Assembly: GCA_964635125.1 (NCBI GenBank)
Contig: CAZWMQ010000002.1
Location: forward strand, 47,591 to 111,590
DNA from: an uncultured Candidatus Saccharibacteria bacterium
Lineage (GTDB): Bacteria; Patescibacteriota; Minisyncoccia; Phycocordibacterales; UBA5272
Direction: 5' to 3'
Length of the DNA: 64,000 bases
Of the stretch, positions 24,455-64,000 are shown one piece after another. A model generated the notes under the pieces. The model had not been told where the DNA came from, ran no database searches, and worked only from the letters and a program-made list of their open reading frames with translations. The position numbers and the translations under genes were made by a program. The first letter of the stretch is position 1, and each line of letters opens with the position of its first letter.

Positions 24455-25771
24455 TTATTTCGGAAGGTAATTTAGAGGATTAAGGTAAGCATTTAATGGA
24501 GCATATGGCATGACCATATAAGTTCCGCAAGTTCGGCTCTTATATTCCTTTGGACCAAATATTTTTACTGCATCGGAAGCAATTACCGTAAAGTGTAAAT
24601 GTGGCCCGGTCACATAGCCAGTTTCTCCGGATAAGCCAATCTGCTCTCCAGTTGATACTGTTTGTCCTTCTTTAACATCTATTACTGATAAATGCCCATA
24701 TAAAGTAGATAGTCCATTATTGTGTTTAATTAATACCCATTTACCATAGCTCGCTTTTTTACAAGCAAGATCAGTATTACCTGTTCCCATTACTATCCCA
24801 TCGCTAGCAGCCGTAACTTTAGTTCCAACTGAAGCTCCCAAGTCAATCCCATTATGACCATGACCATTATAAGCACCGGTCGCGGCAAAATCTGTGTCTC
24901 CAAAATATTGAGTGATAATATGTTTCTCCATTGGTCAAACTAATCCATTCCCTGTTGATGGTAATTTACTTTTATCTAAAATGTATTTTATTTTAGATTC
25001 ATAATCATTAATCTCATCTTGTAGATCTTCTACTTTGTTTTTATTTGCTTTAATTATAGCTTGATATTCTGCTTCTTCATTTTTAGTTTCTCTTAATAGA
25101 GAATTCTGCTCATCTTGATTATCTTTTATTAAACTTTGACGACTATTTAGATCTCGTGAGAGATTATTTAATTTATTTTTCTGATCGAGATAAATATTCT
25201 TATTATCCTCTAAATCCGAGATAGCTCCGTTAATTAAAGCAATCTTTTCAGTTAAAATTCCATTAAATGAGGTTAATTTATAAGTAGTGTTTAAAAAATC
25301 ACTCAAATTTCCGTCCCCTGCTTTAATTATATTTAAAAGAAAGTTATCTTTATCACCATATTCTCTTATTTCTTGTAAAGTATTAACTATTGCTTCTCGA
25401 TTTTCAGAAATTATATCGTTATTATCACTAATCTTATTAACCGTAGTTAAAATATTATTTTCAGCATTTTTAATTTTGAGATTGTTGAGTGAGATTTGAT
25501 TTTGTAAATCTTTCTTTTGAGATTCTAATTTTTGTATGGCCTTTTTTAAAGTATCTGCTTCGGCTTGAGTAGTGGCGACCTTATTACTATATTTATCAAT
25601 CTCAGCTTGGAGATCTGCAATCTGTTGATTACGATTATCTATTTCTTTTTGAAATTGAGTTATGTCTTGGGCAGAAGCTAACTTAATAGATATTTTAAAT
25701 AAAAATATTGAAAAAAAGAAAATTAATAACACCAAAAATACATTAATTGTTAATATCTTCTTACCCACCAT
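24455..25771 (-). CDS. EnvC-like M23 metallopeptidase: N-terminal TM, long coiled coil, C-terminal M23 domain. Merges 2 track ORFs through TGA
   Basis: The coiled-coil ORF (25771-24935) and the M23 ORF (24931-24455) share one frame across TGA at 24932-24934. That gives '...GNGLV-W-PMEKHIITQYFGDTDF', the conserved M23 'WP..G.I.S.FG' motif. Catalytic 'HNGIDLG' and 'GPHLHF' are present. Confidence 0.75.
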
Positions 25772-26037: not shown

Positions 26038-29000
26038 TTAGTATACATTGTAAGTAGTTAACAAAGTACCAAGTTTAGCTGTTGAAGAAGCATAATTGGT
26101 TACTCCGTCAATCACATCAGACCATTTGAAATTGGCTGCTGCACCGACTGTTACATCGTATGTCTGTGAATTTGATGATCCGTTGACAATGTCTCCATAG
26201 ATATCAAAGTTTACAGATTGTCCAGCTCCAATTCTGTATCCAGAAGCGAAGGTTGTGCTAGTTGCAGAAGCTACTCCAGAAATTGTAGTAACATCTGTAC
26301 CATTAGCTTTAACTACTACATTGCTTGCTGATACTGAGAAAGGAAGAACGAACATTGTTACATCTCCATGAGAATCTGCGGCAACATTAATTGTTCCGAT
26401 CTTAACTCCAGTAGTTGTTCCAGAATTTACTGAAACTCCACTTGTAGTCTTCTTTACAGTAGGTAGAGAAGCTACTAAAGTCATAGTATTAGCGGCAACT
26501 GAAGGGGTAATTGTAGTCTGAGTTCCACCAGCAGTATATTTAACTGAAGTTAAAGTAATTGTGCTAGTTGATCCTGAATCTACACCTCCTTGATTAGTTT
26601 GAGTAACAGCTGAGTAAGTAATAGCTACTGGAATATTTAATCCTGAAGCACCTGAAGTAACTCCTAGATTAATTCCGTAGAAATTAGCTACACCGCTAAT
26701 TACATTAGCTGTAACACCATTGATAGTTAGAGATTGAACTCCGGTACCACCAACTGTAAATCCTAAGTCATTTAGAGTTGCATTACCATTAGTTGATACT
26801 ACGTTGTAAGTAGCTACAGCATTAACTGTAGATCCTCCAATTAAATATCGATTTCCAAGAGTAGAAGCAGTTACTAAAGTAGGAGTTCCAACTGAGACAG
26901 AAGCTGCTGTCATAGTAGGAGCAGTTGCTGATTGAGTATTAGTTACAGAAGAAACAGTTCCTCTGTAGCTTACAGTTGAAGAAGCAATAATAGTATATCC
27001 ATTAGTAATCTCAAGAGTATCTACCCAGACTTCAATAGTCTTAGTAGTTCCAGCAGGAACAGTGTAATTTACTGAGAAATTATTAGTTCCAGTTACTGGG
27101 ACAATAGTTTGTGAACCATCAGTAATTCTTAAGTTAGTATAATCTACTCCAGCTGAAGCAGTTCCACCTAAGATTACATTAATGTTAGTAACATTAATAG
27201 CCTCAGATGAACCAGCTTGTAGAGCAAATGATCCAATCTTAACTCCTGTTTGATTCTTAGAAATATTAGCTGCAGTAAATCCAGCAGTTGCTCCGTAAGC
27301 AACATTACCAGAATTAATAGACAAAGATTGTCCAGTAGCTGTAGGAACGGATATTGTGTTGTATGAATATTGTCCTTGAGCTAAGTTAGAGCTTGATGAA
27401 GCTACATCAACTCTAAGAGTACCTGAAGTAATATTTGCATTACCACTATTTACTAAGTCACCTTTAACTTCAACGACTGCTGAAGATCCAGCAGGAATAA
27501 TTAAGTTAGAACCTAAGTTGAAAGTAGTGTTAGATCCAAGAGTTAATTGAACTCCGGAAGAAACAGCTGCTCCATTGACATAGACAGTAACATTATTAAT
27601 CGCTGTAGTTGTAGGACTTAGAGCTACAGTAGCTGTAGCATTAAGGGTAAGATTTTGAACTTTCACATCTTCTCCATAAGCATAGAACTTATAAGAAGCT
27701 AAAGTTTGATTAACTGAGCCACCAACTACTGTTGAAGCAGCGAAGGCTGAGTTTTGTGAAATAGTTAAAGATCCACCACTAATAGTAATTGTTCCAGCTT
27801 GTCCAGATGAACCTGTGAAGGCAGCTGAAGACTTAGTAACAGTTACATTAGCTCCATATAATTGTGAATCTTGTAATGCTACATCTCCAGCATTCTCAAG
27901 AGTTACATAGAAATTTCTACTTGATCCCTTAACAATATCAGCTCTAACATCAAAAGTGTGAGAACCAGTATTAAGTGATAAAGGACTCATTGAGTAGAAA
28001 GTTACATAACCATTAGCTGAGAAAGCTGAGGCATTAGCAAATTGAACTCCATCTACATATAATTTAACATTAGCTAATGAATCTACCGGAGCAGATCCAA
28101 TCATTCGGAAAGTCATAGAACCTAGATTAACAGCTCTAGTTCCAACATTAAGTGCTGAAGACCAGACTGTCGCTCCAGTTACACCTGCATTCATAGAAGT
28201 AGAAGCAGGAGTGATTGTTCCGAAATCAGCTGTAGCTAAAGTAGCTGAAGCAATTGGAAGAGCAGGACCGTTTAATCCTGAAACCATTGCCATAGAGCTA
28301 CCCATAACTGTATAACCAGTTAAAGATACTCCAACTGATTGTCCTGATGAAGATCCAGCAATATCAGCTAGAACAGAGACTGTTCTTGAGCCAGATACTG
28401 CAAATATTCCAGAAGCATTGTTAAATGTGATTGTGCCGTCAGTTAAAACTGAAGCAGCATCAGTTAATCTAGCACCAGTCATAGCATCATATAAATATAC
28501 ATTAGATAATGTACTATTATTAGATACACCTAATCTAGATAACTTAACACTAACTACAGAACCATTACCTGTGAAGACAAAGTCAGCTAATTTAGCTCTA
28601 GCTGAACCTTGTACTAATACATTACTTGGTTGTACTGAAGAAAGTGAAACACTAACCGCTCCTGAAGTAGGATTAGTTGGGTTAGTAGGATTAGTTGGAT
28701 TGGTTGGACCAGAACAACTATTCATAGCTCCTCTTGATGAAGAACCAAAGAATCCTGTTCCTTGAGCTAATCCCCAAGGTGCTAATACTGTTGCAGCATT
28801 AGCATTTTGCCAAGCAATAACGGCAGCCTTAGTTAAGCCACCGAAATATGAAGTCTCCATTCCTGGAGATCCAGCACCACTTGCAGCAATTTGAAATCCT
28901 TTAGAGTTAAGAGCTTGTTGTAAAGCTTTAACATCTGCTCCAGAAGCTCCTAGAGAAAGATTTCTTGTGAATTGATAGCAAGCTGGAGCTGATTGAGCTG

Positions 29001-29073
29001 AAGCAAGCATTGCTCCAGCTAAAGCACCCGCTGAGATAGCAGCTAAAGCTGCTGTCTTTAATTTGAAATTCAT
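26038..29073 (-). CDS. S-layer-like large surface protein: signal peptide, peptidoglycan-binding domain, (PTN)4 linker and a long A/S/T/G/V/N-rich beta-repeat region
   Basis: Signal peptide 'MNFKLKTAALAAISAGALAGAMLASA'. PG_binding_1-like 'LSLGASGADVKALQQALNSKGFQIAASGAGSPGMETSYFGGLTKAAVIAWQ'. Codon usage differs from its neighbours (GC-richer third positions), consistent with very high expression. A leader hairpin and promoter lie upstream. Confidence 0.7.
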   Translation of the reverse strand: MNFKLKTAALAAISAGALAGAMLASAQSAPACYQFTRNLSLGASGADVKALQQALNSKGFQIAASGAGSPGMETSYFGGLTKAAVIAWQNANAATVLAPWGLAQGTGFFGSSSRGAMNSCSGPTNPTNPTNPTNPTSGAVSVSLSSVQPSNVLVQGSARAKLADFVFTGNGSVVSVKLSRLGVSNNSTLSNVYLYDAMTGARLTDAASVLTDGTITFNNASGIFAVSGSRTVSVLADIAGSSSGQSVGVSLTGYTVMGSSMAMVSGLNGPALPIASATLATADFGTITPASTSMNAGVTGATVWSSALNVGTRAVNLGSMTFRMIGSAPVDSLANVKLYVDGVQFANASAFSANGYVTFYSMSPLSLNTGSHTFDVRADIVKGSSRNFYVTLENAGDVALQDSQLYGANVTVTKSSAAFTGSSGQAGTITISGGSLTISQNSAFAASTVVGGSVNQTLASYKFYAYGEDVKVQNLTLNATATVALSPTTTAINNVTVYVNGAAVSSGVQLTLGSNTTFNLGSNLIIPAGSSAVVEVKGDLVNSGNANITSGTLRVDVASSSSNLAQGQYSYNTISVPTATGQSLSINSGNVAYGATAGFTAANISKNQTGVKIGSFALQAGSSEAINVTNINVILGGTASAGVDYTNLRITDGSQTIVPVTGTNNFSVNYTVPAGTTKTIEVWVDTLEITNGYTIIASSTVSYRGTVSSVTNTQSATAPTMTAASVSVGTPTLVTASTLGNRYLIGGSTVNAVATYNVVSTNGNATLNDLGFTVGGTGVQSLTINGVTANVISGVANFYGINLGVTSGASGLNIPVAITYSAVTQTNQGGVDSGSTSTITLTSVKYTAGGTQTTITPSVAANTMTLVASLPTVKKTTSGVSVNSGTTTGVKIGTINVAADSHGDVTMFVLPFSVSASNVVVKANGTDVTTISGVASATSTTFASGYRIGAGQSVNFDIYGDIVNGSSNSQTYDVTVGAAANFKWSDVIDGVTNYASSTAKLGTLLTTYNVY

Positions 29074-45252: not shown

Positions 45253-47190
45253 TTATTCCTCCCCCACCAAATCCCTCAACACTTCCTCTGGGACTTCTTT
45301 TAATTTGTTTCGTAAATTGTTTCTTTTTTCTTCCTCTATCTTAATCTTATCTTGCTTAATATCTTCAACACTCTCTTTAATATTTTCAGTCTCTTGTCTC
45401 ATCTCTACTTGATTATCTTTAATCTTTTTCTCCAATTCCTGATTATCTTCTTTTAAACTTTTAACCTTTCCATCTTCAATCTTAATAGCTTTAGCTAAAG
45501 CATCTTTTAAAGATTGATGATTAGCTTCGGACTCAACTCTTTGTTTCTCAACCCCTTTTCTTAATTTAGATAATTCAACTTCGACAATGTCGTTTTTCTT
45601 ATCATTATAATCCCTCTTAGAACGAGCCCGTTTATTCCTAAAATCATTATAACTTACTTCTTTACTCTCATTTAACTCTTGATTATTATTTTCATTTCGA
45701 CTATATTCGTAATTTTTATTTAGAGAATTATGGATATTATTATTTTGAATTATAGTCTTAGAATTATTTTGATAATTCTGATTAGTTTTATTGAAATTAT
45801 TCTTCTCAAATTGATAGTTAATCTTAGCGGGAGCATTTTGTTTTTCTAATTCTTCAATCTCTTCAATATGTTTAGTCTTTGGAACTGGTAAGAACCATTC
45901 TCTGATCTCTTCTTCCACGGCTTCCTTAGTCTTACTATAGTGATCTCTAGTATACTGAATAATATCATTAGCATATGTAATATCGCCTTTCTCAATTGGT
46001 GGGAGAGCTTTAGCTGAGAATGGTTTAGAGCCAACATTATCAATCATTAATCTCAGATAAATCTGATAAGCAGATAAATTCACAATATCATCAGCAGTAA
46101 AAACTGGAGCGAACTCTTTCTCAAATACCTCAGCATCATGAGCTCCAATTCTAAAAGTGATCATTGTTCCAACATTACCAAATACTGCCGACTTAACTTC
46201 CTCAGTCATCTGATCAATATATTGATGAGCAACGGTTAGAGCTAAATTATATTTTCTAGCTTCAGACAAAATATCGGCAAAGCTTTCGTTAGCGAAATTC
46301 TGAAACTCATCTACATAGAAAAAGAATGGTGGTAAAGTAGATAAATTATCATTCCCGGCATCGGCTCTAGACATAGCTGCTAAATATATTTTCGTAATTA
46401 ATAATGATCCTAAAAGATTAGCATTACCTTCCCCGACTTTCCCCTTTGATAAATTCACTATTAGTATTTTCCGATTATCCATTATCTCTCGTATATCAAA
46501 ACTAGTTTTCTTCTGCCCGATAATATTACGAATTAATGGATTAGATGTATATTGGCCGATCTTATTCTGTATCGCAGGGGCGGCTTCTTGTTGATATTTC
46601 TCACCGGCTTTAGCAAATTCTTCTAGCCAAAATGACTTTACTGATGGATCTTTTAAATTAGAAATCATCTTACGACGATAATCTTTATCACTTAACATAC
46701 GATTAATTCCCATTAAAGTTTCGTCATCGTTTTCAAGTAAAGTTAAAATAATATTATTTAAAATATATTGCATTCTATCGGAAAACTTATCCTCACCGAA
46801 TACTTTCTTAAAGGCCGCCATTAATCCATTAGCTACCAAATGTCGCTTATTAATATCGACTTTCTCTAAGACATTCAAAGCTAAGGGATGCTCCGTATCA
46901 AATGGAGCAAAGTAAATCACATCTTTAATCCTATGTTCTGGGACAAAGTCTAATAATTTCTCAGCAGTTCCACCATGCGGATCTAAAAAAGCTAAACCTT
47001 CGCCATTCTGTATGTCTTGAATAGCCATATTCTCAAGTAAAGTTGATTTACCCATACCGCTTTTACCAATAATATAAGTGTGTCGTGTTCTATCTTTAGA
47101 CTTAATACCAAATTTCACCATCTTATTGCGATAGTCAATATTTCCAAGATAAGTTATGCGATTAGGATCGTTCAAATCTATATCATCCAT
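45253..47190 (-). CDS. VirD4/TraD-like type-IV coupling-protein ATPase with a K/E/N-rich coiled-coil C-terminal extension
   Basis: Walker A 'IIGKSGMGKST'. Walker B 'FFFYVDEFQNF'. 'TVAHQYIDQ' motif. Confidence 0.55.
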   Translation of the reverse strand: MDDIDLNDPNRITYLGNIDYRNKMVKFGIKSKDRTRHTYIIGKSGMGKSTLLENMAIQDIQNGEGLAFLDPHGGTAEKLLDFVPEHRIKDVIYFAPFDTEHPLALNVLEKVDINKRHLVANGLMAAFKKVFGEDKFSDRMQYILNNIILTLLENDDETLMGINRMLSDKDYRRKMISNLKDPSVKSFWLEEFAKAGEKYQQEAAPAIQNKIGQYTSNPLIRNIIGQKKTSFDIREIMDNRKILIVNLSKGKVGEGNANLLGSLLITKIYLAAMSRADAGNDNLSTLPPFFFYVDEFQNFANESFADILSEARKYNLALTVAHQYIDQMTEEVKSAVFGNVGTMITFRIGAHDAEVFEKEFAPVFTADDIVNLSAYQIYLRLMIDNVGSKPFSAKALPPIEKGDITYANDIIQYTRDHYSKTKEAVEEEIREWFLPVPKTKHIEEIEELEKQNAPAKINYQFEKNNFNKTNQNYQNNSKTIIQNNNIHNSLNKNYEYSRNENNNQELNESKEVSYNDFRNKRARSKRDYNDKKNDIVEVELSKLRKGVEKQRVESEANHQSLKDALAKAIKIEDGKVKSLKEDNQELEKKIKDNQVEMRQETENIKESVEDIKQDKIKIEEEKRNNLRNKLKEVPEEVLRDLVGEE

Positions 47191-49532: not shown

Positions 49533-50945
49533 TTATTTCTCTAACTTAATTCCTAACTCTTTTAAATGTTTCTGACTGGTCTTCGCTGGAGTTTGAATTA
49601 ATAAATCCTTTCCTTCCCCAGTCTTAGGAAAAGCAATTACTTCGCGAATATTAGGTTCGTTCAATAATATCATCATTAATCTATCAAATCCTCAAGCAAT
49701 ACCCCCGTGAGGTGGAGTCCCCGATTCAAAAGCTCTTAACATATGACCGAAATTATTCTCAATACTTTCCTCATTATAACCAAGTATTTCTAAAACATTT
49801 CGCAAGTCATTAGCTTTATGATTACGAATTGATCCTCCTCCGATCTCATATCCATTTAAGATCAAATCATATTGTTGAGTGTAAATATCAGCAATATTTT
49901 TCTTATTATTAACATCTTTTAATTGATTCTCTTTAGGACGAGAAAATGGGTTGTGAGTAAAAGTCCATTCTCCTTCAGCCTCTGGATCATCACTCTCAGC
50001 AGTTTTCTTAAAAAATGGGAAATCTACCACTCAAGCTAAAGCTAATAAATCTTTATCATTTTTATCTTTTCTTAGATCTGGTCTATCATTACCATATTTC
50101 TCCATGGCTTCAACATAAGTTAAGATTGGGAATGGTTTATCTTGAATCTTTTTCTCGGGAAATACATTTTCAATTAACTTTATAATTAATTCTTCGTTTA
50201 ACTTGCGAATTTCTGCTTCACTCATAAAACTAACCTCCATATCTAGCTGAGTGAATTCTGGTTGTCTATCTCCACGAGTATCTTCGTCTCGCATACATTT
50301 AGCAAATTGAAAATATCTCTCTAACCCTCCAGCCATTAATAATTGTTTATATTGTTGCGGTGATTGTGGTAGGGCATAAAATGTCCCTGGTGAGAGACGT
50401 GCTGGTACAATATAAGATCTTGCTCCTTCTGGAGTTGGATTAGTAAGAACTGGAGTTTCTACTTCTACAAAGTCCATTTTTAACAATTCACTTCTTAAGA
50501 AATTTTGAGCTTTAGATCTCATTCTTAGATTATGTTGAATTCTAGCTCGTCGCATATCTAAATACTTCTTCTCCAACCTAACTTCTTCATTAATCTCTTT
50601 ACCATCAGTAGATATATCAAAGGCGGGGGTCTCGGCTTCATTTAAAACCTTAATCTCTAAAATTTCTAATTCTAATTCACCATTAATGATGCCAACTTTA
50701 ATATTCTTCTCCGGGCGAGAATTAACTTTAGCTTTTATTTCTACTACTCATTCTGGTCTTAATTTCTCAGCTATAACTTTAGCTTCAGTCTGATTAGGTA
50801 AGACTACTCCTTGAACTTTACCACTATAGTCTCGTATATCTAAAAATATCAATTTGCCCTGATCTCTTCTTACATCTATTCAGCCTTTGACTAATACTTC
50901 TTCATTCAAATGTTTATTTAAATCTTTAATTAAAGTCCTTTCCAT
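49533..50945 (-). CDS. aspS: aspartate--tRNA ligase (4 in-frame TGA, all at conserved Trp/aromatic positions)
   Basis: TGA at 50880-82 gives 'VLVKG-W-IDVRRDQGKLIFLDIRD' (E. coli 'CGWVNRRRD'). TGA at 50748-50 gives 'LRPE-W-VVEI'. TGA at 50031-33 gives 'LLALA-W-VVDFPFF' (E. coli 'FLWVIDFPMF'). TGA at 49692-94 gives 'PPHGGIA-W-GFDRLMMILL'. Motif 2 'FQFAKCMRDEDTRGDRQPEFTQLD' is present. Confidence 0.85.
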
Positions 50946-53313: not shown

Positions 53314-56300
53314 TTAATTCTGAGATAATGCTTCGGATGTAGTGTTATCGTTTAATAGAATATTATTAACAAATCCCCTAGTTGACCAGAAAAAGTTTCC
53401 AGTTCCAACTCCATTTGTAATTCCTACATTAGTTAAGATTGATGGATTAGCTTCTTGATAAGTTTTCAAAGCATTCCAAGTCATATATCCGAAATAATTA
53501 GTCTCTTGCCCTAATGAACCAGGACCAGTTTCAGCTAATTTAAATCCTTTTAGATTTAAGAACTTTTGAAGAGCTTTGACTTCGTCTCCTATTGAACCTA
53601 ATTTTAGATTTTGGGTAAATTGATAAGCTGTCGCTCCTAATACTGACCCATTTCCTCCATTTGTAGTTGTTTGAGGTGGAATAAATATTGAGCCTCCACT
53701 AAAAGTCTGAGGAGTTGAAGTTGGATTACCGCCGCCGCCGCCGCCATTTTCCTCTACTCCTGTAATTGATATGTTTGTGCTAGTAGAGCTAGTTGCTCCA
53801 TCATTATCAGCTACAGTAAGTACTACATTATAATTCCCATTACTAGTATAAGTATGGCTTGGATTTAATCCTAAAGCACTATTACCATCTCCGAAATCCC
53901 AATTTAAATCAGAAATTGTTCCGTCTGTATCAGTTGAAGTATTTGTGAATAGTATAGTTGGATCATTAGAATTATCTACAATGAAACTCGCAATAGGGCT
54001 ATTGTTCTCATCGCCTTCGCCTTCTCCATCTCCACCATGATTACTGGTAACATTTACATCATAAGTTGATTCGTTACTCTTGTTGTTAGCTTTATCGACA
54101 GCAATTAGATGTATAGTATAATCGCCACTTTCTAAATCAGAAACATCAAATCCTCCTAACTCAACCGAACTAGTTGAGCTTCCAAAATTTGTCGCTCCAT
54201 TTGCCCAAGTAGTTACACAATTACTATTTCTAGTTCCTCCGATTTCTGTACTATCATTTTTCTTAGTCAACCAACAATAATAATAATTTAAATTAATGTC
54301 AGTTATATACCCAGAAAAAGCTTCTACATCGTCTGTTTGAGTAGCTGAGGTAATTTGAGCAACTGGTTTAATATTATCAACAGTTATCTTCCATAGATCG
54401 CTCCAAACACTTTGATTATTAGAACTATCAACGGCTTTGACTCTCCACCAATAATTAGTATCACTAACATTGGTAGCAGTCTTACTGGTGGTGCTATATT
54501 CTCCATGGAATCTTAAACTAGAAGCTGTGGAATTGTTATAACTTTCATAAATATAATGATCAACATCATCTGAACTATCACTCCAAACTTGAGTTATGCT
54601 TGCTCCATTAACTACGGAATTATTAGCTGGGCTCACTAAAAGTGGTTTAGCTGGGGGATTAGTATCAGGCATAGTCAACACAAAACTACTAGTCCAACCA
54701 GGGTTATAAGTATTTCCAGCCATATCAACTACATTAGCATTAGCACTATAAGTTCCTGATCCACATAGAGAACTAGTTGCATTTACATTATATATAGAAG
54801 AAATATCGTATTGTTTAGATCAAGATGAGCTTGTGCTAAATGGAGAAGTTATAAGATTAAACAAAAACCCTCCGCAACGAGCATTTATATTACTATTAAG
54901 TAATTGAAGATATACTCTATTCAAAGCTAAATTATCAGTTGAAGTTCCACTAACTGTAAATTTACCATTAACTACCGGACTAACACTAATAGTTGTAAAA
55001 GGAATAGTGTGATCGTAATAATAATGAACTGATGGACTCCAACCTCCGATGTTACCGGCCTTATCAATTCCTCTTACCCAGATAGTAACCCCTCCTTCTT
55101 CATTTGGGCCTGGTTGATGTCCTCTTGAAGTTCCGTTAACATCTCGACATCCTACCCATTTACCATTGATAGTAGTGGTTGCTGAACAAGTTGAGTCTCC
55201 AAAAGTATGTCCGTCATCATATTGGTAAGCGACTTGATAATGATCAATCTGTTCAGGATTTCCATTTATATCTTTGGTGATTGGATTCCAAGAATCATTA
55301 ATTGGGGTAATCCTAAACCATTGTCTTTCTCCTGGAGTTAAGATAGTGGTTATAGCTGGAGCAGCTGTATCAGAATTAAGTACTAAATTGTCTCGTACAG
55401 TTGACCCATTTCCTGCTTGATCAAATGGTACAGCAGTTACAGTAAATTGTCCCCCATTAACTACACCAAGTTCTTGTAATTTCTGAGCTGGGAATGTATA
55501 GTTAAATGTTCCGCTAGCATTACCTTTAACTATACCGAGAGCATAATGATAACCATAATCTGGATGAGTATTATGATAATAATAATTATAATTATAACTA
55601 TACCCATTACCAGGAGAAAGATACAACATAATATGATCGATACCGCTCAAATTATCAGAATATGTCCCCGTAACGGTTAAGTCATTATTGGTACTAACAT
55701 GACTCCCGGCATTTGGTCAAGTAAAAGTAACAATTGGGTCAGTGATATCATAATTAATTATAGAAGAAGTAGACCAGTCTGAAGTTTTATCATTATCTCC
55801 AACCGATCTAACTCTAAATACTCAAGGAGCTTCAATTCCTTTTGGAGTTGTTCCAAAAGCTTGATTTGGAATGCTGGTTATATTACCTAAATTTTCTGGG
55901 CTAGATCAAGTCAATCCACCATCTTTCGAATAAGAGTAATCGTAACTAGCGATTGGTTCTGGAGTAGTAGTTGGATTAGATCAGCTTGGGGTGATTAGAT
56001 CAACATTAGTTGAAGTAATAGAATGATTGGTACTATTTAGTCAAACTAAGTTGATTGGGGCAGATGGTGCTGGTGTTTCAAATGTATATTCTTTACACCC
56101 GGCTACTATTTTAGTAATTGTGTAATCGCCTAAGACCCCGCTACCAAGACTATATCCAATCGCTAAAACTTTAGCATTTGGAAATCTATTTAACCATTCT
56201 TCTGCTGTTCCAAACCAATTACTTCCATTTCCTCCTCCGGTATTTGGAGCATTATCTTTTACAAATTGCTGAGCACTATTTGATAGCCACCAATTATTTC

Positions 56301-58323
56301 CATAAATAGTTTCTCCGACTAAGATTCCGTCGGGGGTTCCGTCATTATTAAAATCTACAACTAATTGAGAGCTCGGAGCAATACTTCCAGAATTAGTTAT
56401 ATAATTAATAGTATCTGAAATATTATTAGTTCCTAGATCTTTTAGATCAAAATTAGTAACGAAATACCCTGCAGCCTTATCTGTAGAGGTGTTTCCTTCA
56501 GTCCAAATATGTAACCCGTTAGAAACAATCTGATTATGCCCTGTGGCTCTAGTCTCTGATAAATCCCATGTTGATAAATCAGTTGTTACAACTTGAGTAG
56601 GATTAGTACAGACATTTATTAATATTGGTTCGAAGTCATACTCATCATTAACGGTTGTAGTAATAACATGAAAATCATCAACATTCCCTGTAAAATTTGT
56701 CCAACCACTCCCTGCCTTAAATCCAACGGCTTGAAGTGTTCCGAGATTAATTCCTATATTTGGATAAAGAGCTATTAATTGAGAAAATGTACATGGATTA
56801 GATTGAGAACAATTATTATTGAATAAAGTTGATGCTTTGGATAGCCATCACTTACCATTTACAGCATTCCAAGTCTGCCATTGATTATCAGTAACTGTAC
56901 CATTTAAATATGGTTCATATACTAATCGACCTTGCCATCCTAAATTACTATCAGTAACATCTTTTGTTATATTTAACTGAATAGATGGAGCAATCGTATT
57001 ATTACCACTTTGGACATAAGTTGAATAATCTATTGTAGAAATGTCTGATAACTTTGTTCCACCATATTGTGGAAGTGCAACTAAATATCCCTCTCCTGAA
57101 GTAGCGACGGATATTTCTAAACTCCCAGATCCTAATGGTGCAGTAGCTGGTCCATTAACATAGTCTGCACTTCCGCCATTTCCATTATCATCGATTGGAG
57201 TTCATCCATGTAAATCTCCAGGTTTAACTATAATCATATTTAGACTTGGGGTAGTCGTCCCGCTTCCAGATCCTCCACCACCACCGCTAGAAATTGGGTC
57301 TGTAGTCTCAGTAAGTGTCGAACTAGTGGCAAAGTTAGTCCCGTCAGTCGCTACTACAAACATGGCATAGCTAGTAGAAGCTGTTAAACCAGTAATAGCT
57401 GAGCTTGTAGAAGTAGTAGAACCATAAGAAGCTCCATCCTTAAATACTTCGTAAGAAGTAGCTCCAGATACATCATTCCAATGAAGTACAAAAGAAGTCG
57501 AAGTTAAATTAGACACATATAAGTTCGGAGCAAATAAAGTCGAACTTGAAGTAGTAGCTGCCGCTAAAGTAGTCTCTTCTAAAGAAGCAATTCCTGATAC
57601 ATTTCCAGCATTATCAAATGCCGCCACAGTTAAAATATAAGTAGAAAAAGCAGTTAATCCAGAAATTGTAAAGTTAGTGTTGGTTGTAGTTGCAATAGTT
57701 GTGCTAGCCGAGCTTTGTAATTTATAACCTACAGAATAATAAGCTATACCGCTTCCAGTATCTATTGAAGGATCTCAAGTTAATCCGATAGAATTACTAG
57801 TAACAGAAGTCGTAGCGAAATTAGCTGGTGTAGATGGGGCAGTATTGTCTACAGTAGAAGTAGAAATTAAATCTCCAGTTAAAACAACATTAGAAATTAT
57901 TGCATTATCAAGATTAGAAGGATTCCCTAACAATCTAAAAACTAAACTGAAATTACTATTAGAAGAAGTAGCATTATATGGTATAGATATACTTATATGC
58001 CCGACTTCACTAGAAGAAGTAGTTCCGGTCTCACCTTCGATACTACCAAGAGATTGAACCTTAGCCGCACCAGTATCAATATTATATCCATAATCTAAAA
58101 AATCTCCTGGTTCTAAACTACGAATATCATAATCGAAAGATAAATTTAAATTATTATAAAGACTAGTATCGGTAGCAATCTTTTTAAAACCGGCTGGGCC
58201 AGTTATAGTTGATGATGCTGTTTGATTAATTAAAGTTGTTCCACCTGTTGCTAAAGCATAATATAAAGATATACCGGCAACAGCAGTAAGAACAATTCCA
58301 AAAATTGATAATATTTTTTTCAT
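53314..58323 (-). CDS. giant (~1669 aa) secreted surface protein with signal peptide, FN3, PKD and a C-terminal peptidoglycan-binding domain; at least 10 in-frame TGA
   Basis: Track ORFs 57775-58323, 57202-57627, 54820-55650 and 53314-54723 share one frame across TGA. The 57775-77 and 54820-22 junctions were checked codon by codon. Between 55651 and 57201 the - strand carries many TGA codons. FN3 'FAPNLYVSNLTSTSFVLHWNDVSGATSYEVF'. PKD 'DLNWDFGDGNS'. PG-binding 'LKLGSIGDEVKALQKFLNLKGFKLAETGPGSLGQETNYFGYMTWNALKTYQ'. TAA stop at 53314-16. Confidence 0.55.
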
Positions 58324-58593
58324 ATTTTTATTTTTAAATTTTTATGAAGTTTTTAAAACGAAATAATTCGCTAATAAATTAATAATAAAGAAAGAACAAC
58401 ACAACACTTAATTTATTAAAGATAAATAAGCATTTACCAACTTATACATAGACAATCTACATATTATTTTAAGTATATAACCATCAAAATCTAATGTCAA
58501 TATAGAAATAGTTTTACTTTTACTAAAAATATGTTAAAATAAATCTAAATTCTTAAGTCTTGGTTCTTGCAACTTGAAACTTGACTCTTGAAT

Positions 58594-58660
58594 GCAGTGG
58601 TAGCTCAGCTCAAGTAAGAGATTCTGCGAGCACCGCCCGTAATGGACGGAAAGTGGAAAT
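58594..58660 (+). pseudogene. partial duplicate of the tRNA-Asp 5' half with a divergent continuation
   Basis: 'GCAGTGGTAGCTCAGCT' is identical to the tRNA-Asp 5' end and is followed by non-tRNA sequence. Preceded by five CTTGNNN heptamers. Confidence 0.5.
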
Positions 58661-58697
58661 CAAAAACTGAATTGATATATTTCTGTAATAAAAATAT

Positions 58698-58771
58698 GCA
58701 GTGGTAGCTCAGCTGGTTAGAGCACCGCCCTGTCACGGCGGGGGTCGTGGGTTCGAGTCCCATTCACTGCG
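58698..58771 (+). tRNA. tRNA-Asp (anticodon GUC)
   Basis: Acceptor GCAGTGG/TCACTGC, D-arm GCTC-AGCTGGTTAG-AGCA, anticodon stem CCGCC/GGCGG with loop CTGTCAC, T-arm GTGGG-TTCGAGT-CCCAT. Confidence 0.85.
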
Positions 58772-58940
58772 CAAAAAATAATGAGAAACTCTAAAAGAGT
58801 TTAGAATATATTTTTGGCTAAGGAGCGAGGCTCGAACTAAATTGTCTGCAAAGCCAGTTTTTAATTTTGAAGAAATGAAAAACTGAGACAATTTATGCAG
58901 GGTCGAGAAATGATGAGTGAAGCGAATATATTTGGTGACC

Positions 58941-58963
58941 GAGTCCCATTCACTGCGCAAAAA
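58941..58963 (+). repeat. 23-bp direct repeat of the tRNA-Asp 3' end (58755-58777), att-like
   Basis: 'GAGTCCCATTCACTGCGCAAAAA' occurs twice, 186 bp apart. Confidence 0.6.
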
Positions 58964-59034
58964 TAAAAAGTTAATAATTAATTTGTATATATAAACTAAT
59001 TATGATATTATAAATCTACTATTTTTATAGTATA

Positions 59035-59105
59035 TAGCGGAATGGAGTAAAGGTAACTCGCAAGGCTCATAACCTTGAAACCCAGGTTCGAATCCTAGTT
59101 CCGCA
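59035..59105 (+). tRNA. tRNA-Met (CAU), initiator-like (A11:U24, unpaired 1.72)
   Basis: D-arm GAGT-AAAGGTA-ACTC, anticodon stem CAAGG/CCTTG with loop CTCATAA, T-loop TTCGAAT. One C.A mismatch in the T-stem. Confidence 0.6.
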
Positions 59106-59143
59106 ACAATTTTGATTTTCTTTACTCCATTCTATTTTAGCGG

Positions 59144-59214
59144 AATGAATTAAAGTTAAACTCAGCAAGCTCTAACCTTGAAACCCAGGTTCGAATCCTA
59201 GTTCCGCAACAAAT
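59144..59214 (+). pseudogene. degenerate copy of the initiator-like tRNA; D-stem disrupted, anticodon loop CTCTAAC (would read as CUA)
   Basis: The acceptor, T-arm and 3' half are identical to 59035-59105. The D-arm and anticodon stem are mutated. Confidence 0.45.
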
Positions 59215-60079: not shown

Positions 60080-60156
60080 TGGTGTCAGTAGGTGGAATTG
60101 AACCACCGACCTTGGCTTTATGAGTGCCACGCTCTAACCAACTGAGCTATACTGAC
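60080..60156 (-). tRNA. tRNA with CAU anticodon (elongator Met or Ile2-lysidine type); CCA encoded
   Basis: Reverse complement: acceptor GTCAGTA/TACTGAC, D-arm GCTC-AGTTGGTTAG-AGCG, anticodon loop CTCATAA, T-arm GGTGG-TTCAATT-CCACC, 3' ACCA. Confidence 0.75.
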
Positions 60157-60201: not shown

Positions 60202-63200
60202 TTATTGAGTAGGAGTTGAGGTAGCTTCTGATGTGGGTGTTGATTCTGGGGTTATTTGTGGTTCAGTTGTTGGAGTTGAGTCAGGTGTTGAAGTTGATTC
60301 TGATGTAGTTTCAGTAGAGTTCGAAAAATTGTCATCTATAGTATTTGAGGTAGTTGAGCTATTGTCTGAATTAGTCTCAGTAGTTGAAGATCCATTACTA
60401 ATATCAGGAGTAGTCGTTCCGTTATCTGTATTTGTTTCTAAAGTGGTTGAGCCATTATTATCTGAGCTTGAAGAAAACTCGCTTCCTCCACTAGTATTGG
60501 TATTGCTATTCGAAGAAGAATTTTGAGTATTTAATAATTCTTGTAATTGATTAGCATTAGTACAAACTTGCTGCCCATTTTCATTAATCAAACAAAGTTT
60601 CTTCGTCTCAATAAGATCAGAATATAATTTTACAAAATATCCTCTGATAGCAGAAATTCTTAATACTACCAGGTTAGTTAGTAATTCATACCCGGATGAT
60701 AATCTATTATGAATTGTTTGTAAAACATCTATATTATTTTCATTGGTTATAAGATCTATGGTGTTAGTAGCATCACTATTAATTGTTAAAAGAGAATCGC
60801 TACCATTTAAAGTATTGAAAGTTGATTTTAAAGAAGCTACAATATATGGAGTGAATCCTCCATAATTGACTCCTTTCAATCCTCCTGGGTCAGTAGAAAC
60901 CAAATCCGAAAATAATTGTTCTACTTCTTGGGCTATAAATCCAGTATGCTTTGAGCTTGAGCTAGACTCTATTTTCCAATTATAACTAACAGGGTTTAAA
61001 ATTAAAAGTTTATCTAAGACCGATAAGGAGCTAGTAGCTATATTATTATTTAAAACAAACTGAACTTCACTGTTATTTAAAATTGCCGAAGTATTAACTA
61101 AATCTATATTCTTCTTTAAATTAATATCGGAAGAACAAGTCAAAGAAGTTGTATTTGGACTAATCGTACAATTCCCACTACTATTAGTAAATCTAGCGAC
61201 TACACCTGAAATACTACTATTACCAACATCTAAAGTGTATTGTGGAGTAGATGTAGCAATACCTATATAATCACTACTCAAATCCCCATAAATAGTATTC
61301 CCAATATTCAATTGATTATTAGAGGTAGAAGCAGTAACATCTACATTATAACCAATTAAGATATTGTCATGACCGGTAGTGATAGAGTCTCCAGCTTGAT
61401 AACCAATAGCTGTGTTATTGTATCCAGTGCTATTATTATATAAAGCACTCAATCCAATACCAGAGTTACTTCCTCCAGTAGTATTATTTCTAAGAGTTCC
61501 TCGACCAACTGCCACATTAGATTGTCCAGAAGTAGTATTTTGAAGAGCATAAGATCCAAGTCCAACATTGTCACTAGAACTTGTGGCGCTATTAATAGCT
61601 TGATAACCGATAGCCACATTATCTAATCCAGTTAAGTTATTCTGTAAAGCATAAGTACCTAAAGCCAGGTTTCCACTTCCACTAGTGTTAGCAGCTAAAG
61701 AGTTAACTCCAAGTCCAACATTATCATTTCCATCAATATTAAATCCTAAAGCATCATTACCTATAGCTATATTATTAGTACCTATAGTATTAAAATCTAG
61801 AGCATATGGTCCGATGGCGACATTATTTTGAGAACTAGTAGAGTGATTAAGAGCTAGGTGACCAATGGCTATGTTGTAGCTTCCAGTAGTCATACTCTGC
61901 ATAGCATCAAATCCTATGGCTGTATTTCTATTACCACTAGTTATATTTTGTAAAGATTCAGATCCTACTCCTGTATTATATTGTCCGGAGGCTGATGAAT
62001 TACCTGAGTTACCAAAGAAATAGCTGTTTAAGGTTGTGGAGGCAAAGACGAGAGAAGTTCCATTTAAAGTAACTTGACTTGTAGTACTAACTATCACTCC
62101 TGTTTCATTTAACCAAGAAGCTGTGGTGCCATTAGTATATAAGAATTTACCAGCATTGCCAGATTGAGATGGAAGACCTCCACCTGAAACTGTCGCCCAA
62201 GCTACCACTCCACTTCCATTAGTTTGTAAGACTTGTCCGTTAGTTCCATCAGTATTAGGTAAAGTGTAGGCTCCGATCTTTAAGGTTCCAGTGAAGCTAC
62301 CGGTTCCGGCAACAGTTAGGGTTTCATTTAGAGTAGAAGTTCCAATCCCAATCTTTCCACCAGAAATAGCTGTGGTGGTTGGATTACCAGAAGTAGTTGA
62401 ATATAATCCTGTTCCAAATAATATTCCACCAATGTTAAGAGAGTTAGTGGTTGCATTAGGTAAAGAAACATTGGTTCCAATAATAATATTGTTATTACCT
62501 ATGTTATTAGAAGTAAAAGACATACCAGCTTGATAACCAATCAGATTAGAGTATTGAGCATTATCTGCTCCATATCCAGCAGATGTCCCAATGAAGTTTG
62601 AATTATCTGCATCAGTTGCACTATATCCAGCATTATAACCAAGGAAGTTAGCATAAGAAGTTCCATTTGCACTATATCCAGCAGAATCACCAATGAAGTT
62701 AGATTCATCTGAACTGCTAGCATTATGTCCAGCATCTGTCCCGATAAAGTTAGAATATGGCGAACTAGTAGCATTCTGCCCAGCACTTGTCCCAATGAAG
62801 TTAGAATCATTCGAATTGCCAGCATTCATACCAGTATTTAAACCAAAGAAGTTAGAGTCTCCGGAATTAGCTGAATAATTACCGGCTTGATGACCGAAGA
62901 AGTTAGAATAACTTGAATCATGAGCATTTTGTCCAGACCAACCAATATAGTTAGAGATAGAGTTATAAGCTTGATAACCAGCATAATAACCAATACCTAC
63001 TGCTCCAGCTGAATTATAAGCACCATATCCAGCACTTAGACCAAAGAAGTTAGTGGCTCAAGAACCATTAGCTCCATAACCAGCATTTTCTCCTAAGAAA
63101 TTAGATTCGTGAGTACCAGTAGCATTTTGTCCAGCTCCATCTCCTAAGAATACTGATTGATAAGCATCTGATCCGTTTCCAGCATTATTACCTAAGAATA

Positions 63201-64000
63201 TATTTCTACCAGTATAAGTAGTTGATCCTACTCCAGCATTAAGTCCTGGAGTATATATAGTATTTAAAGTACTAGAAGCAATTGGAGAAGAAATAGTAAT
63301 TACTCCAGAACCATTGTCAGAGATTGTTGTTCCATATTGTCCGGTTAGATTAAGTAAGGTAGATGAGCCATTGGTTACTCCATTTGTTTTTAGAGTGATT
63401 GAGCCCCCTCCCACTGTCTGCCAAGATCCATCATCTCTTAAGAACTTAGTACCGTCTGGAGTTCCAGTAATAGATAATTTAGAGATAGCAATAGAGCCGG
63501 CTAACATTGAATTAGTTACTTTACTTGCTCCAATAGTAGTGACAATAGATGTAGTTCCTGAACCACTAACATCACCTGAGAGAGTAATAGTTTGATTACC
63601 AGTTAAATAATCAGTTCCGGGAGTGGCTATTGCTAAAGTGTTTGCTCCAGTTCTCTTAATTAGTCCGTTAGAAGATAATCCTGTAATAGTATCTTGAGTA
63701 ATAGAGCCACCTAATGGAATAGCTACTCCAGCAATGGTAATTGTGGCATTAGCTAAGTTAGCATTAGTAATACCAGCAGTTCCTGATAGATTAGCATTAG
63801 TTAGTCCTGAGATAGAACCACCTAAGGTTAGGTTTCCTGAAGTAGCAACTGTTCCGGTTAAAGTAAGACCGGAGACAGTTCCAGTTCCTCCTACTGAAGT
63901 AACTGTTCCTACTGAGACATTACCTGATCCTAAGAGAGAGTTACTATTAACTGTCTTAATATTAGTTCCTGAGACTAAGGTGTCTTGTTTTCCATTAATC
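60202..64000 (-). CDS. giant fibre-like surface protein, 5'-truncated by the window edge, with YadA-head-like 14-residue repeats, a beta-rich shaft, a peptidase-S74 intramolecular-chaperone (auto-cleaving) domain and an S/T/P/E-rich tail; multiple in-frame TGA
   Basis: The frame continues upstream of the track M at 62829 through TGA codons, e.g. 63058-60, into track ORF 63058-63507 and beyond 64000. 14-mer repeats 'xSNFIGxxAGxxAx'. S74 motifs 'SSDINLKKNIDLV', 'PVSYNWK', 'GFIAQEVEQLFSDLV' and 'LKGVNYGGFTPYIVASLK'. Confidence 0.6.

What the first reader, a model, noticed from the sequence alone, without database searches (positions are those of the whole stretch)
60202..64000. Phage-tail-fibre-like giant protein (YadA-like repeats plus S74 intramolecular chaperone domain) encoded next to the tRNA cluster
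The protein combines three elements:
- 14-residue 'SNFIGxxAGxxA' head repeats;
- a long N/S/T/G-rich beta-shaft;
- a C-terminal auto-proteolytic intramolecular-chaperone domain with 'SDINLKKNI', 'PVSYNWK' and 'GFIAQEVE'.

This is the hallmark of phage tail spikes and fibres (endosialidase-type) and of some bacterial adhesins. Here it is followed by an unusual S/T/P/E-rich tail that should be cleaved off. In a small-genome, possibly episymbiotic bacterium, this could be a host-attachment fibre or the remnant of a prophage or tailocin. It lies directly beside tRNA genes that show duplicated att-like fragments.
Basis: partly seen in the sequence, partly recalled or inferred. Interest (0 to 1): 0.65.

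Follow-up and report, generated by a model that had tools for sequence, protein, structure and literature searches.

The report
Chaperone-matured surface fibre of a Patescibacterium
This is the 3' three-quarters of a gene for a very long fibre protein, built from phage tail-fibre parts and ending in a self-cleaving folding domain, that a tiny-genome (CPR/Patescibacteria) bacterium carries as an ordinary chromosomal gene, probably for its own cell surface; it is one of hundreds of similar genes in such bacteria, not a prophage.

Summary

- **The gene.** A minus-strand ORF runs from its TAA stop at 60202 past the window end (at least 1265 codons). It holds one in-frame TGA (63058-63060).
- **Genetic code.** The window uses code 4, so TGA encodes Trp. 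The gene is therefore intact.
- **Repeats.** Both repeat blocks have a 17-residue period, not 14. No YadA Pfam model matches.
- **S74 domain.** The intramolecular-chaperone domain is confirmed by Pfam (E 4e-11), by an invariant Ser957/Asp958/Lys962 motif, and by fold matches to all four solved relatives (MyRF, endoNF, T5, GA-1).
- **After the chaperone.** A conserved two-cysteine hairpin and a disordered tail follow. The same extension is found in most homologues that carry signal peptides, and in none of those that look phage-encoded.
- **Context.** Four signal-peptide homologues lie among housekeeping genes of small genomes. Nothing phage-like lies in the roughly 15 kb of window downstream of the gene.
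- **tRNA fragments.** The duplicates are real, but they are decayed local copies that do not flank the gene.

Best reading: an exported trimeric fibre or adhesin made of phage receptor-binding modules and matured by autocleavage. It is a new member of a known, widespread and unstudied kind. The N-terminus lies outside the window, so the signal peptide is inferred.

The parts
60202..64000 (-). Fibre gene, 3' part: at least 1265 codons plus the TAA stop at 60202-60204. The 5' end and start codon lie beyond the window.
   Evidence: Open frame read with TGA as sense. The database copy P0001 is a code-11 truncation of 875 aa.
63058..63060 (-). In-frame TGA, read as Trp314 of the fragment.
   Evidence: All four TGA codons of the window's AspRS align with invariant Trp in 119-120 of 120 homologues. 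The 17-residue repeat register is unbroken across this codon.
63238..63999 (-). N-terminal visible module (aa 1-254): G/T/S-rich segments and a 'GTPDGTKFLRDDGSWQTVGGG' motif. It is widespread in metagenomic fibre-like proteins.
   Evidence: 45-79% identical stretches in many metagenome contigs, and 62-64% to Verrucomicrobia and Acidobacteria loci.
62485..63237 (-). Repeat block A (aa 255-505): about 14 copies of the 17-residue unit SNF[FIL]GxxAGxxAxxxxx.
   Evidence: Autocorrelation peaks at lags 17 and 34, z 13.7 and 10.6. 44% identity to Sphingomonas phage PAU gp257.
62008..62484 (-). Connector (aa 506-664) with two 'GxxGQVLxxxGxGxxxW' motifs.
   Evidence: Read from the sequence. No significant periodicity.
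61285..62007 (-). Repeat block B (aa 665-905): about 14 copies of the 17-residue unit N[TV]A[IVL]GxxALxxNTTGxx. Predicted beta-solenoid with one turn per repeat.
61132..61284 (-). Fibre tip (aa 906-956), ending in the Cys944...Cys955 loop just before the predicted cleavage site.
   Evidence: Cys955 (A1 position C44) is nearly invariant (>=90%), and Cys944 is aligned in most of the 32 sequences. These are two of only four Cys in 1265 residues.
60796..61131 (-). S74 intramolecular chaperone core (aa 957-1068). Ser957 is at 61129-61131 and Lys962 at 61114-61116. A 27-residue insertion follows the SDINLKKNI motif.
60622..60795 (-). Variable, low-confidence linker after the chaperone helix (aa 1069-1126).
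   Evidence: pLDDT below 50 and a gappy alignment.
60520..60621 (-). Conserved post-chaperone module (aa 1127-1160): 'KKLCLINENGQQVCTNANQLQELL', a two-Cys beta-hairpin plus helix.
   Evidence: Cys1136 and Cys1146 are nearly invariant. pLDDT 84-88. The motif is present in 29 S74-bearing homologues and associated with a signal-like N-terminus (Fisher p 0.003). Not covered by any viral-contig match.
60205..60519 (-). Disordered acidic S/T/N/P-rich tail (aa 1161-1265).
   Evidence: Composition. Analogous tails of 20-196 aa occur in homologues.
60080..60156 (-). tRNA-Met(CAT), 45 nt downstream of the fibre gene's stop.
   Evidence: ARAGORN and Rfam, 69.6 bits.
58592..59212 (+). tRNA-Asp and tRNA-Met genes with decayed partial copies (58592-58610, 58940-58963, 59139-59209).
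   Evidence: Exact 19-, 24- and 40-nt duplicates. The 59139-59209 copy scores 28 bits against a cut-off of 29 and does not fold as a cloverleaf.
53314..58323 (-). Neighbouring giant surface protein (1669 aa, nine TGA codons): signal anchor, two fn3 domains, PKD, and a PG_binding_1-like C-terminus.
   Evidence: Pfam. The same kind of neighbour (a 1628-aa protein and a PG_binding/fn3 protein) follows the closest homologue in L006.

Best explanation
The gene encodes a Sec-exported, homotrimeric surface fibre of a Patescibacteria (Parcubacteria-group) bacterium that reads UGA as Trp. The fibre is assembled from modules shared with phage receptor-binding proteins.

**Visible architecture, N to C**
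- a G/T/S-rich module;
- a 17-residue 'SNFxG' solenoid;
- a connector;
- a 17-residue 'NTAIG' solenoid;
- a disulfide-stapled tip;
- an S74 intramolecular chaperone.

**Proposed mechanism**
1. After export, three C-terminal chaperone domains associate through their long helix.
2. They template the folding and trimerisation of the upstream beta-helical shaft.
3. The Ser957/Lys962 dyad then cuts the chain just before Ser957. The equivalent bond in MyRF is P586-S587, with K592 five residues on.
4. This releases a 309-residue fragment (chaperone, Cys hairpin and acidic tail) and leaves a kinetically stable fibre whose distal tip is newly exposed.
5. By analogy with phage fibres, the N-terminal end stays with the cell and the tip binds a ligand. 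For an episymbiont that ligand is most plausibly the surface of its host cell.

**What is shown**
- domain identity and an intact dyad;
- solenoid repeats;
- homology to phage modules;
- chromosomal, non-phage context of homologues;
- code 4.

**What is inferred**
- the signal peptide of this copy;
- trimerisation and cleavage;
- disulfides;
- anchoring;
- host binding.
For: - **Mechanism.** The serine-lysine dyad, the dependence of cleavage on trimerisation, and the P586-S587 cleavage site come from PMC8326128.
- **Repeats.** 17-residue period with z about 13. Beta-solenoid model resembling tailspikes and adhesins.
- **Phage-module homology.**
- **Cellular rather than viral.** 29 of 43 full-length S74 homologues have a signal-like N-terminus. 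24 of those 29 also share the target's post-chaperone Cys motif and tail, against 4 of 13 without a signal-like N-terminus.
- **Homologue contexts.**
  - L006: NusA, trigger factor, M50 | gene | EF-Tu, S10.
  - L007: pyruvate kinase | gene | fmt, def, HisRS.
  - P0061 contig: M50 | gene | S12, S7, EF-G.
  - L112: trmD | gene | rpoB, rpoC.
- **Window context.** tRNAs, small membrane proteins, an fn3/PKD/PG-binding giant protein, a CAP protein and AspRS.
- **Native gene.** One of its six Trp codons is TGA, close to the window-wide 20%.
Against: - The 5' end is outside the window, so neither the signal peptide nor the upstream neighbours of this copy were seen. Attempts to fetch the source contig failed.
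- Homologues show no recognisable cell-wall or membrane anchor after the signal peptide, so retention on the cell is unexplained.
- Nothing here tests trimerisation, cleavage or binding.
- The target is only 33-50% identical to its nearest relatives, so transferring their architecture to it is an inference.
Confidence: 0.62

Rival explanations
1. A tail fibre or tailspike of an integrated prophage, a prophage remnant or a tailocin. The rest of the element would lie beyond position 64000.
For: - Module-level homology to phage tail fibres and spikes.
- S74 domains are classic phage receptor-binding-protein chaperones.
- tRNA genes with duplicated fragments lie next door.
- The upstream side was not seen.
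Against: - No phage-like gene lies in the roughly 15 kb of window downstream of the gene.
- The tRNA duplicates are 103-186 nt from their parents and enclose nothing. The gene lies on the 5' side of the adjacent tRNA-Met, not the 3' side where elements integrate.
- The target has the Cys-hairpin-plus-tail ending that goes with signal peptides and housekeeping contexts. That ending is absent from phage-type homologues and from viral-contig matches.
Confidence: 0.1
2. A secreted, enzymatically active 'tailspike-like' protein. The beta-solenoid would be a polysaccharide depolymerase or lyase that degrades host capsule or wall, rather than a passive adhesin.
Against: - A 17-residue turn with two short strands is much slimmer than the roughly 22-residue three-strand pectate-lyase turn.
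- There is no Pfam Beta_helix, pectate-lyase or glycosidase match.
- Sequence identity to those enzymes is 8-13%. The highest identities (19-23%) are to non-enzymatic adhesin heads, BpaC and UspA1.
Confidence: 0.12
3. A structural envelope or S-layer-like coat protein of the bacterium, with no role in partner recognition.
For: It lies in a cluster with other giant wall-associated proteins carrying PG_binding, fn3 and PKD domains. Paralogues occur in one genome: P0003 and P0017 are on the same 804-kb contig.
Against: The protein diverges fast compared with housekeeping genes: about 33% identity to the L006 homologue, against 79% for AspRS from the same contig. Its phage receptor-binding modules also fit an interaction surface better than a lattice. 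The evidence cannot separate these two readings firmly.
Confidence: 0.14
4. A pseudogene: the TGA at 63058 is a genuine stop that splits a decayed gene.
For: Under code 11 the frame is interrupted. The public database holds only the 875-aa downstream piece.
Against: - TGA aligns with invariant Trp at 4 of 4 sites in AspRS.
- 15 of 48 ORFs in the window carry in-frame TGA.
- The repeat register and sequence conservation continue across the codon.
Confidence: 0.02

Closest known systems
C-terminal intramolecular chaperone domain of phage K1F endosialidase (endoNF; MEROPS S74; PDB 3GW6), with its relatives on the GA-1 neck appendage (3GUD) and the T5 L-shaped tail fibre pb1 (4UW8)
   Different: - It is encoded in a cellular chromosome, probably behind a signal peptide.
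- A 27-residue insertion follows the catalytic motif.
- The chaperone is followed by a conserved two-Cys hairpin and a 105-residue acidic disordered tail. Viral-contig matches to the S74 module end before this part, and phage-type homologues lack the motif.
MyRF ICA domain (PDB 7DC3)
   Different: MyRF is a eukaryotic ER-membrane transcription factor whose chaperone stays membrane-bound. Here the released part has no transmembrane segment.
Phage tail fibres and spikes with 'NTAIG' repeats plus S74: coliphage P817 tail fibre, Pelagibacter phage HTVC111P tail fibre, Bacillus phage SPO1 gp2.52 tail spike
   Same: The order of modules is the same (repeat block B, then S74), with 23-32% identity over about 385 residues.
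   Different: The target is much longer. It has the additional SNF solenoid, a different C-terminal ending and a non-phage context.
Proteins that NCBI names 'tail fiber domain-containing protein' in bacterial MAGs (for example P0114), and the homologues found here
   Same: They share the family and, for most, the full architecture: signal peptide, PGxTLDPxCxPGDxNC motif, SNF repeats, S74, Cys hairpin and low-complexity tail.
   Different: This copy sits in a code-4 genome and carries a UGA Trp codon. It has both repeat types and an unusually long S/T-rich tail.
Trimeric autotransporter adhesin heads (YadA, UspA1 3PR7, BpaC 7O23)
   Same: They are also Gly/Asn/Ala-rich solenoid repeats with an 'xxAxG' core. 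They give the highest sequence identity among solenoid fold matches (19-23%) and have a likely adhesive function.
   Different: The period is 17 residues rather than 14. There is no YadA_head Pfam match, no coiled-coil stalk and no C-terminal beta-barrel anchor. Trimerisation would come from an S74 chaperone, not an autotransporter.

Membership tests
Peptidase S74 / intramolecular chaperone auto-processing (CIMCD, ICA) domain | Sequence match to Pfam PF13884 above the curated cut-off | tested here: met
   43.4 bits against a cut-off of 22, E 4e-11, aa 987-1034. Profile positions 1-8 are separated by a 27-residue insertion.
Peptidase S74 / intramolecular chaperone auto-processing (CIMCD, ICA) domain | Catalytic Ser and Lys five residues apart in an S-D-x-x-x-K motif | tested here: met
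   S957-D-I-N-L-K962. S, D and K are invariant in 32 aligned homologues. The spacing matches MyRF S587/K592.
Peptidase S74 / intramolecular chaperone auto-processing (CIMCD, ICA) domain | Fold of the solved chaperone domains, including the long C-terminal helix | tested here: met
Peptidase S74 / intramolecular chaperone auto-processing (CIMCD, ICA) domain | Sits directly C-terminal to a beta-helical fibrous region | tested here: met
   A 17-residue solenoid lies at aa 665-905, then a tip at 906-956.
Peptidase S74 / intramolecular chaperone auto-processing (CIMCD, ICA) domain | Trimerisation-dependent autocleavage that releases the domain | not testable with these tools
   Needs expression of wild type against S957A and K962A.
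Phage tail fibre / tailspike as a virion component | Homology to phage receptor-binding protein modules | tested here: met
   PHROGs families 23837, 6002 and 4636. tblastn hits in 61 phage records.
Phage tail fibre / tailspike as a virion component | Encoded within a phage or prophage structural gene cluster | tested here: inconclusive
   The roughly 15 kb of window downstream of the gene holds no phage genes. The upstream side is outside the window. Four signal-peptide homologues lie among housekeeping genes.
Phage tail fibre / tailspike as a virion component | Cytoplasmic assembly, so no secretion signal | tested here: inconclusive
   The target's N-terminus was not seen. 29 of 43 full-length S74 homologues have a signal-like N-terminus, and the target shares the C-terminal ending found in 24 of those 29.
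Trimeric autotransporter adhesin (YadA-like) | 14-residue YadA-head repeats (Pfam PF05658) | tested here: not met
   The period is 17. No PF05658 match at E <= 1.
Trimeric autotransporter adhesin (YadA-like) | C-terminal YadA beta-barrel membrane anchor | tested here: not met
   The C-terminus is S74 plus a Cys hairpin plus a disordered tail. No anchor match.
Tailocin / contractile injection system fibre | Adjacent sheath, tube and baseplate genes | tested here: inconclusive
   None in the window or beside the homologues. The upstream side of the target was not seen.
Unnamed Patescibacteria-type exported S74 fibre subfamily (defined here from homologues) | Post-chaperone 'LC...C.T..QL..LL' hairpin followed by a low-complexity tail | tested here: met
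   KKLCLINENGQQVCTNANQLQELL plus a 105-aa tail. The two Cys are nearly invariant.
Unnamed Patescibacteria-type exported S74 fibre subfamily (defined here from homologues) | N-terminal signal peptide followed by a PGxTLDPxCxPGDxNC motif | not testable with these tools
   The 5' end is beyond the window. The source contig was not retrievable.

The most novel reading that the evidence does not exclude
Patescibacteria (CPR) have domesticated phage receptor-binding proteins, including their self-cleaving S74 chaperone, into a large, fast-evolving family of Sec-exported cell-surface fibres. The family has its own add-on: a Cys hairpin and an acidic disordered tail that are discarded with the chaperone. 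These fibres would be a main determinant of which host cell an episymbiont attaches to. This copy shows the system at work in one of the very few bacterial lineages outside Mollicutes and insect symbionts that read UGA as Trp.
Probability: 0.3. Interest if true: 0.6.

Novelty: new member of a known kind. Interest (0 to 1): 0.36.

Why it matters
How ultrasmall episymbiotic bacteria recognise and hold on to their hosts is largely unknown. Type IV pili are the only appendage tested so far.

This gene belongs to a numerous, unstudied family that reuses phage receptor-binding hardware and sits among core genes. That makes it a concrete candidate for host-specificity factors, with one simple handle to test: the Ser/Lys cleavage.

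There is also a practical point. The gene is mis-annotated in public data because the genome is read with the wrong genetic code. The same error will affect every long surface protein of this lineage.

On its own, though, the gene is one more member of a known domain architecture.

Tried and rejected
**Attempts to recover the missing 5' end and upstream genes (all failed)**
- Exact-protein look-up of the neighbouring 176-aa protein found only ~1-kb Logan contigs.
- P0001 is on a 113-kb NCBI contig that is not in the gene index and has no accession.
- The source genome is not among the GTDB representatives.
- The metagenome scan gave only distant partial matches.

**Genetic code**
- Code 25 (UGA as Gly, as in Gracilibacteria and Absconditabacteria) was my first guess for a low-GC CPR genome. 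I rejected it because UGA aligns with Trp, not Gly.

**Searches that returned nothing or little**
- phmmer of the whole protein against PDB sequences: no hit.
- NCBIfam: no hit.
The single-sequence scan found only S74-core matches.
- Literature searches found no paper linking S74 domains with CPR or Patescibacteria in the held library.

**Other ideas tested**
- The decayed tRNA copy at 59139-59209 is not a suppressor tRNA. Its anticodon loop is two bases shorter than in the parent tRNA-Met (read from the sequences), and it does not fold as a cloverleaf.
- The higher GC of the gene (33-38% against about 28%) looked like a possible sign of transfer. It is shared by the other Gly/Ala/Thr-rich surface-protein genes in the window, so amino-acid composition probably explains it.
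Full report
**1. What is at the coordinates**

On the minus strand one frame is open from the TAA stop at 60202-60204 to the window edge. It is interrupted under the standard code only by a TGA at 63058-63060. The gene therefore continues beyond 64000: at least 1265 codons are visible and the N-terminus is missing. I number residues from the first complete codon (63997-63999).

**2. The TGA is a Trp codon**

- Reading TGA as sense lengthens many ORFs across the window. The neighbouring 1669-codon ORF contains nine TGA codons.
- In the window's aspartyl-tRNA synthetase (49533-50945, minus strand), the four TGA codons align with Trp, or Trp/Phe, in solved AspRS structures. They align with Trp in 119-120 of the 120 closest database homologues.
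- In 48 ORFs there are 32 TGA against 128 TGG codons. Fifteen ORFs carry at least one TGA.
- So this is code 4, not the code 25 one might expect in a low-GC CPR genome.
- In the fibre gene the 17-residue repeat register runs unbroken across the TGA: motif starts at residues 299 and 316, TGA at 314.
- The public database copy of this protein (P0001, 875 aa, 100% identical) starts at the first ATG after the TGA. It is a code-11 truncation.

**3. Whose genome**

- The window carries a 23S and a 5S rRNA gene and four tRNA genes. It also encodes FtsK, S1 and an M23 peptidase (read from the translations) and AspRS. It is a bacterial chromosome with about 28% GC.
- AspRS is up to 84% identical to metagenomic proteins.
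- It is 79% identical to the AspRS on a 612-kb contig, and 67% identical to one named Candidatus Nomurabacteria. That taxon belongs to the Patescibacteria/Parcubacteria group.
- A 2026 preprint reports the first UGA-to-Trp Patescibacteriota, in the class Minisyncoccia (10.64898/2026.05.24.727570). This window fits that description. I could not place it in their named lineages.

**4. Anatomy of the protein**

| Fragment aa | Feature | Evidence |
|---|---|---|
| 1-254 | G/T/S-rich module with a 'GTPDGTKFLRDDGSWQTVGGG' motif; widespread in metagenomic fibre-like proteins | |
| 255-505 | About 14 copies of 'SNF[FIL]GxxAGxxAxxxxx' | |
| 506-664 | Connector with two 'GQVL...W' motifs | |
| 665-905 | About 14 copies of 'N[TV]A[IVL]GxxALxxNTTGxx' | |
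| 906-956 | Tip, ending 'NCTISPNTTSLTCS' | |
| 957-1068 | S74 chaperone core | |
| 1069-1126 | Variable linker | |
| 1127-1160 | Conserved 'KKLCLINENGQQVCTNANQLQELL' | |
| 1161-1265 | Tail: 28% Thr, 26% Ser, 12% Asn, 7% Pro; 15 acidic and no basic residues | |

Autocorrelation z is 13-14 at lags 17 and 34.

An AlphaFold2 model of aa 640-960 gives a regular beta-solenoid with one turn per repeat, a six-residue and a three-residue strand. pLDDT is 75-87 in the core and 64 overall.

So 'YadA-like' is a loose resemblance only. There is no YadA_head Pfam match at E <= 1, the period differs, and there is no autotransporter anchor.

**5. The S74 domain is real and looks active**

- Pfam Peptidase_S74 scores 43.4 bits against a cut-off of 22. 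The match starts at profile position 9 because a 27-residue insertion follows 'SDINLKKNI'. The closest homologues share that insertion.
- In an alignment of 32 C-terminal modules the invariant columns are Ser, Asp and Lys of the SDxxxK motif, and Gly, Ala and Gln of 'GFIAQ'.
- An AlphaFold2 model (pLDDT 77) finds MyRF ICA as its top three Foldseek hits, probability 0.96-0.99.
- In MyRF the dyad is S587/K592. The cut is at P586-S587 and needs trimerised chaperone domains (PMC8326128).
- By analogy the cut here is between Ser956 and Ser957, releasing 309 residues.
- The protein has only four cysteines. Cys955 is nearly invariant and Cys944 is aligned in most sequences; together they enclose a 12-residue loop ending one residue before the cut. 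Cys1136 and Cys1146, both nearly invariant, lie in the post-chaperone hairpin. Two disulfides in an exported protein is the natural inference, but it is not shown.

**6. Phage or cell?**

*Phage relatedness at module level is clear.*
- PHROGs gives 'tail spike protein' and 'virion structural protein' families, E 1e-29 to 3e-40.
- tblastn against 50,697 phage records gives repeat block B plus S74 at 23-32% identity in tail fibres and spikes of coliphages ST4 and P817, Pelagibacter phages and SPO1-like phages. It gives block A at 44% in Sphingomonas phage PAU gp257.

*The close relatives, however, are cellular.*
- Of 43 full-length S74-bearing homologues among the top 120, 29 start with a signal-peptide-like hydrophobic segment. 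This is often followed by 'PGxTLDPxCxPGDxNC'.
- 24 of those 29 also carry the post-chaperone Cys hairpin and low-complexity tail. Only 4 of 13 without a signal-like start do (Fisher p 0.003).
- Homologues without a signal peptide, such as P0008 and P0011, end differently. P0011 sits among a dUTPase gene and many genes with no Pfam match, as a phage gene would.
- Matches in IMG/VR viral contigs cover only the S74 core, never the hairpin. That scan depends on exact peptide seeds, so it is only indicative.

*Four signal-peptide homologues lie among core genes.*
- P0063: after NusA, trigger factor and an M50 peptidase, and before EF-Tu, S10 and L3, on the 612-kb contig.
- P0003: between pyruvate kinase and fmt, def and HisRS, on an 804-kb contig.
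- P0061: between an M50 peptidase and S12, S7 and EF-G.
- P0102: between trmD and rpoB/rpoC.

The M50 -> fibre -> translation-operon arrangement recurs in two genomes, which points to vertical inheritance.

*The window itself.* The gene is followed by tRNA-Met, two small membrane-protein ORFs, tRNA-Met, tRNA-Asp and a 1669-aa surface protein (fn3, PKD, PG-binding). After that come a CAP-domain protein and AspRS. There is no phage gene.

The fibre diverges much faster than housekeeping proteins: about 33% identity to P0063, against 79% for AspRS from the same contig. That is typical of interaction surfaces.

**7. The tRNA fragments**

- They exist. The first 19 nt of tRNA-Asp recur 104 nt upstream, and its last 24 nt recur 186 nt downstream. 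tRNA-Met (59036-59107) has a tandem decayed copy at 59139-59209 with an identical 40-nt 3' part.
- That copy scores 28 bits on the Rfam tRNA model against a cut-off of 29. Its anticodon loop is two bases shorter than the parent's, and it does not fold as a cloverleaf.
- The distances leave no room for an integrated element.
- The fibre gene lies on the 5' side of the adjacent tRNA-Met (60080-60156, minus strand).
- These fragments are therefore not evidence that the fibre gene arrived with a prophage.

**8. Verdict**

The finding is a genuine, intact, very long gene for a fibre built of phage receptor-binding modules and matured by an S74 chaperone. It is most likely exported and used on the surface of a Patescibacterium.

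It is one member of a family with hundreds of relatives in public data: 595 proteins at E <= 1e-5 among the candidates scored. NCBI already labels such proteins 'tail fiber domain-containing protein'.

Three points go beyond that label:
- the 17-residue solenoids;
- the conserved hairpin-plus-tail that is discarded with the chaperone in the cellular subfamily;
- the UGA Trp codon in a code-4 Patescibacterium.

The host-attachment role is plausible but untested. The signal peptide of this copy was not seen.

Noticed in passing
whole window; e.g. 49533-50945 (-), 53314-58323 (-), 63058-63060: The genome reads TGA as Trp (code 4). 15 of 48 ORFs have in-frame TGA, and the four in AspRS align with invariant Trp. 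The organism is a Parcubacteria-group Patescibacterium. UGA-to-Trp in that phylum was first reported in a May 2026 preprint. A relative at 79% AspRS identity (the L006 contig) still uses code 11. Public protein calls for this contig, such as P0001, are code-11 truncations.
   Followed up: yes
19883-24061 (-): The 23S rRNA match spans 3773 nt for a 2925-nt model, implying about 850 nt of insertions. 5S follows it. No 16S gene is adjacent: the next gene upstream is an M23 peptidase at 24455-25771. No Rfam intron family matched.
   Followed up: partly
58592-58610, 58940-58963, 59139-59209: There are decayed partial or tandem copies of tRNA-Asp and tRNA-Met 103-186 nt from the intact genes. The tRNA-Met copy scores just under the Rfam cut-off and has a damaged anticodon loop. 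Their origin (tandem duplication or old integration scars) is unresolved.
   Followed up: partly
53314-58323 (-): A 1669-aa surface protein with nine TGA codons: N-terminal signal anchor, two fn3 domains, a PKD domain and a weak PG_binding_1-like C-terminus. It forms a surface-protein cluster with the fibre gene. A comparable cluster follows the fibre homologue in L006.
   Followed up: partly
26038-29073 (-): A 1011-aa protein with a signal peptide and an N-terminal PG_binding_1 domain, then about 900 residues of unassigned Ala/Ser/Thr/Gly/Val-rich sequence. Local GC is 37% against about 28% elsewhere.
   Followed up: no
45253-47190 (-): A TrwB/TraG-like type IV secretion coupling ATPase with a long Lys/Glu/Asn-rich C-terminal extension. 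It is consistent with the type IV secretion system described for Patescibacteria.
   Followed up: no
49533-50945 (-): The AspRS is 470 aa and lacks the roughly 105-residue insertion domain of bacterial AspRS structures. All 120 closest homologues listed are similarly short (448-501 aa).
   Followed up: partly
L006 9123-22682; P0061 contig: The gene order M50 peptidase -> S74 fibre gene -> large surface protein(s) -> ribosomal-protein and elongation-factor genes is conserved in two Patescibacteria contigs. In L006 the adjacent 1628-aa protein also carries SNF-type repeats but no S74 domain.
   Followed up: partly
63472-63909 (fragment aa 31-176): This N-terminal module has stretches 45-79% identical to sequences in many freshwater, marine and soil metagenome contigs and in Verrucomicrobia and Acidobacteria MAGs. 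That conservation is much higher than for the rest of the protein. No Pfam model covers it.
   Followed up: no
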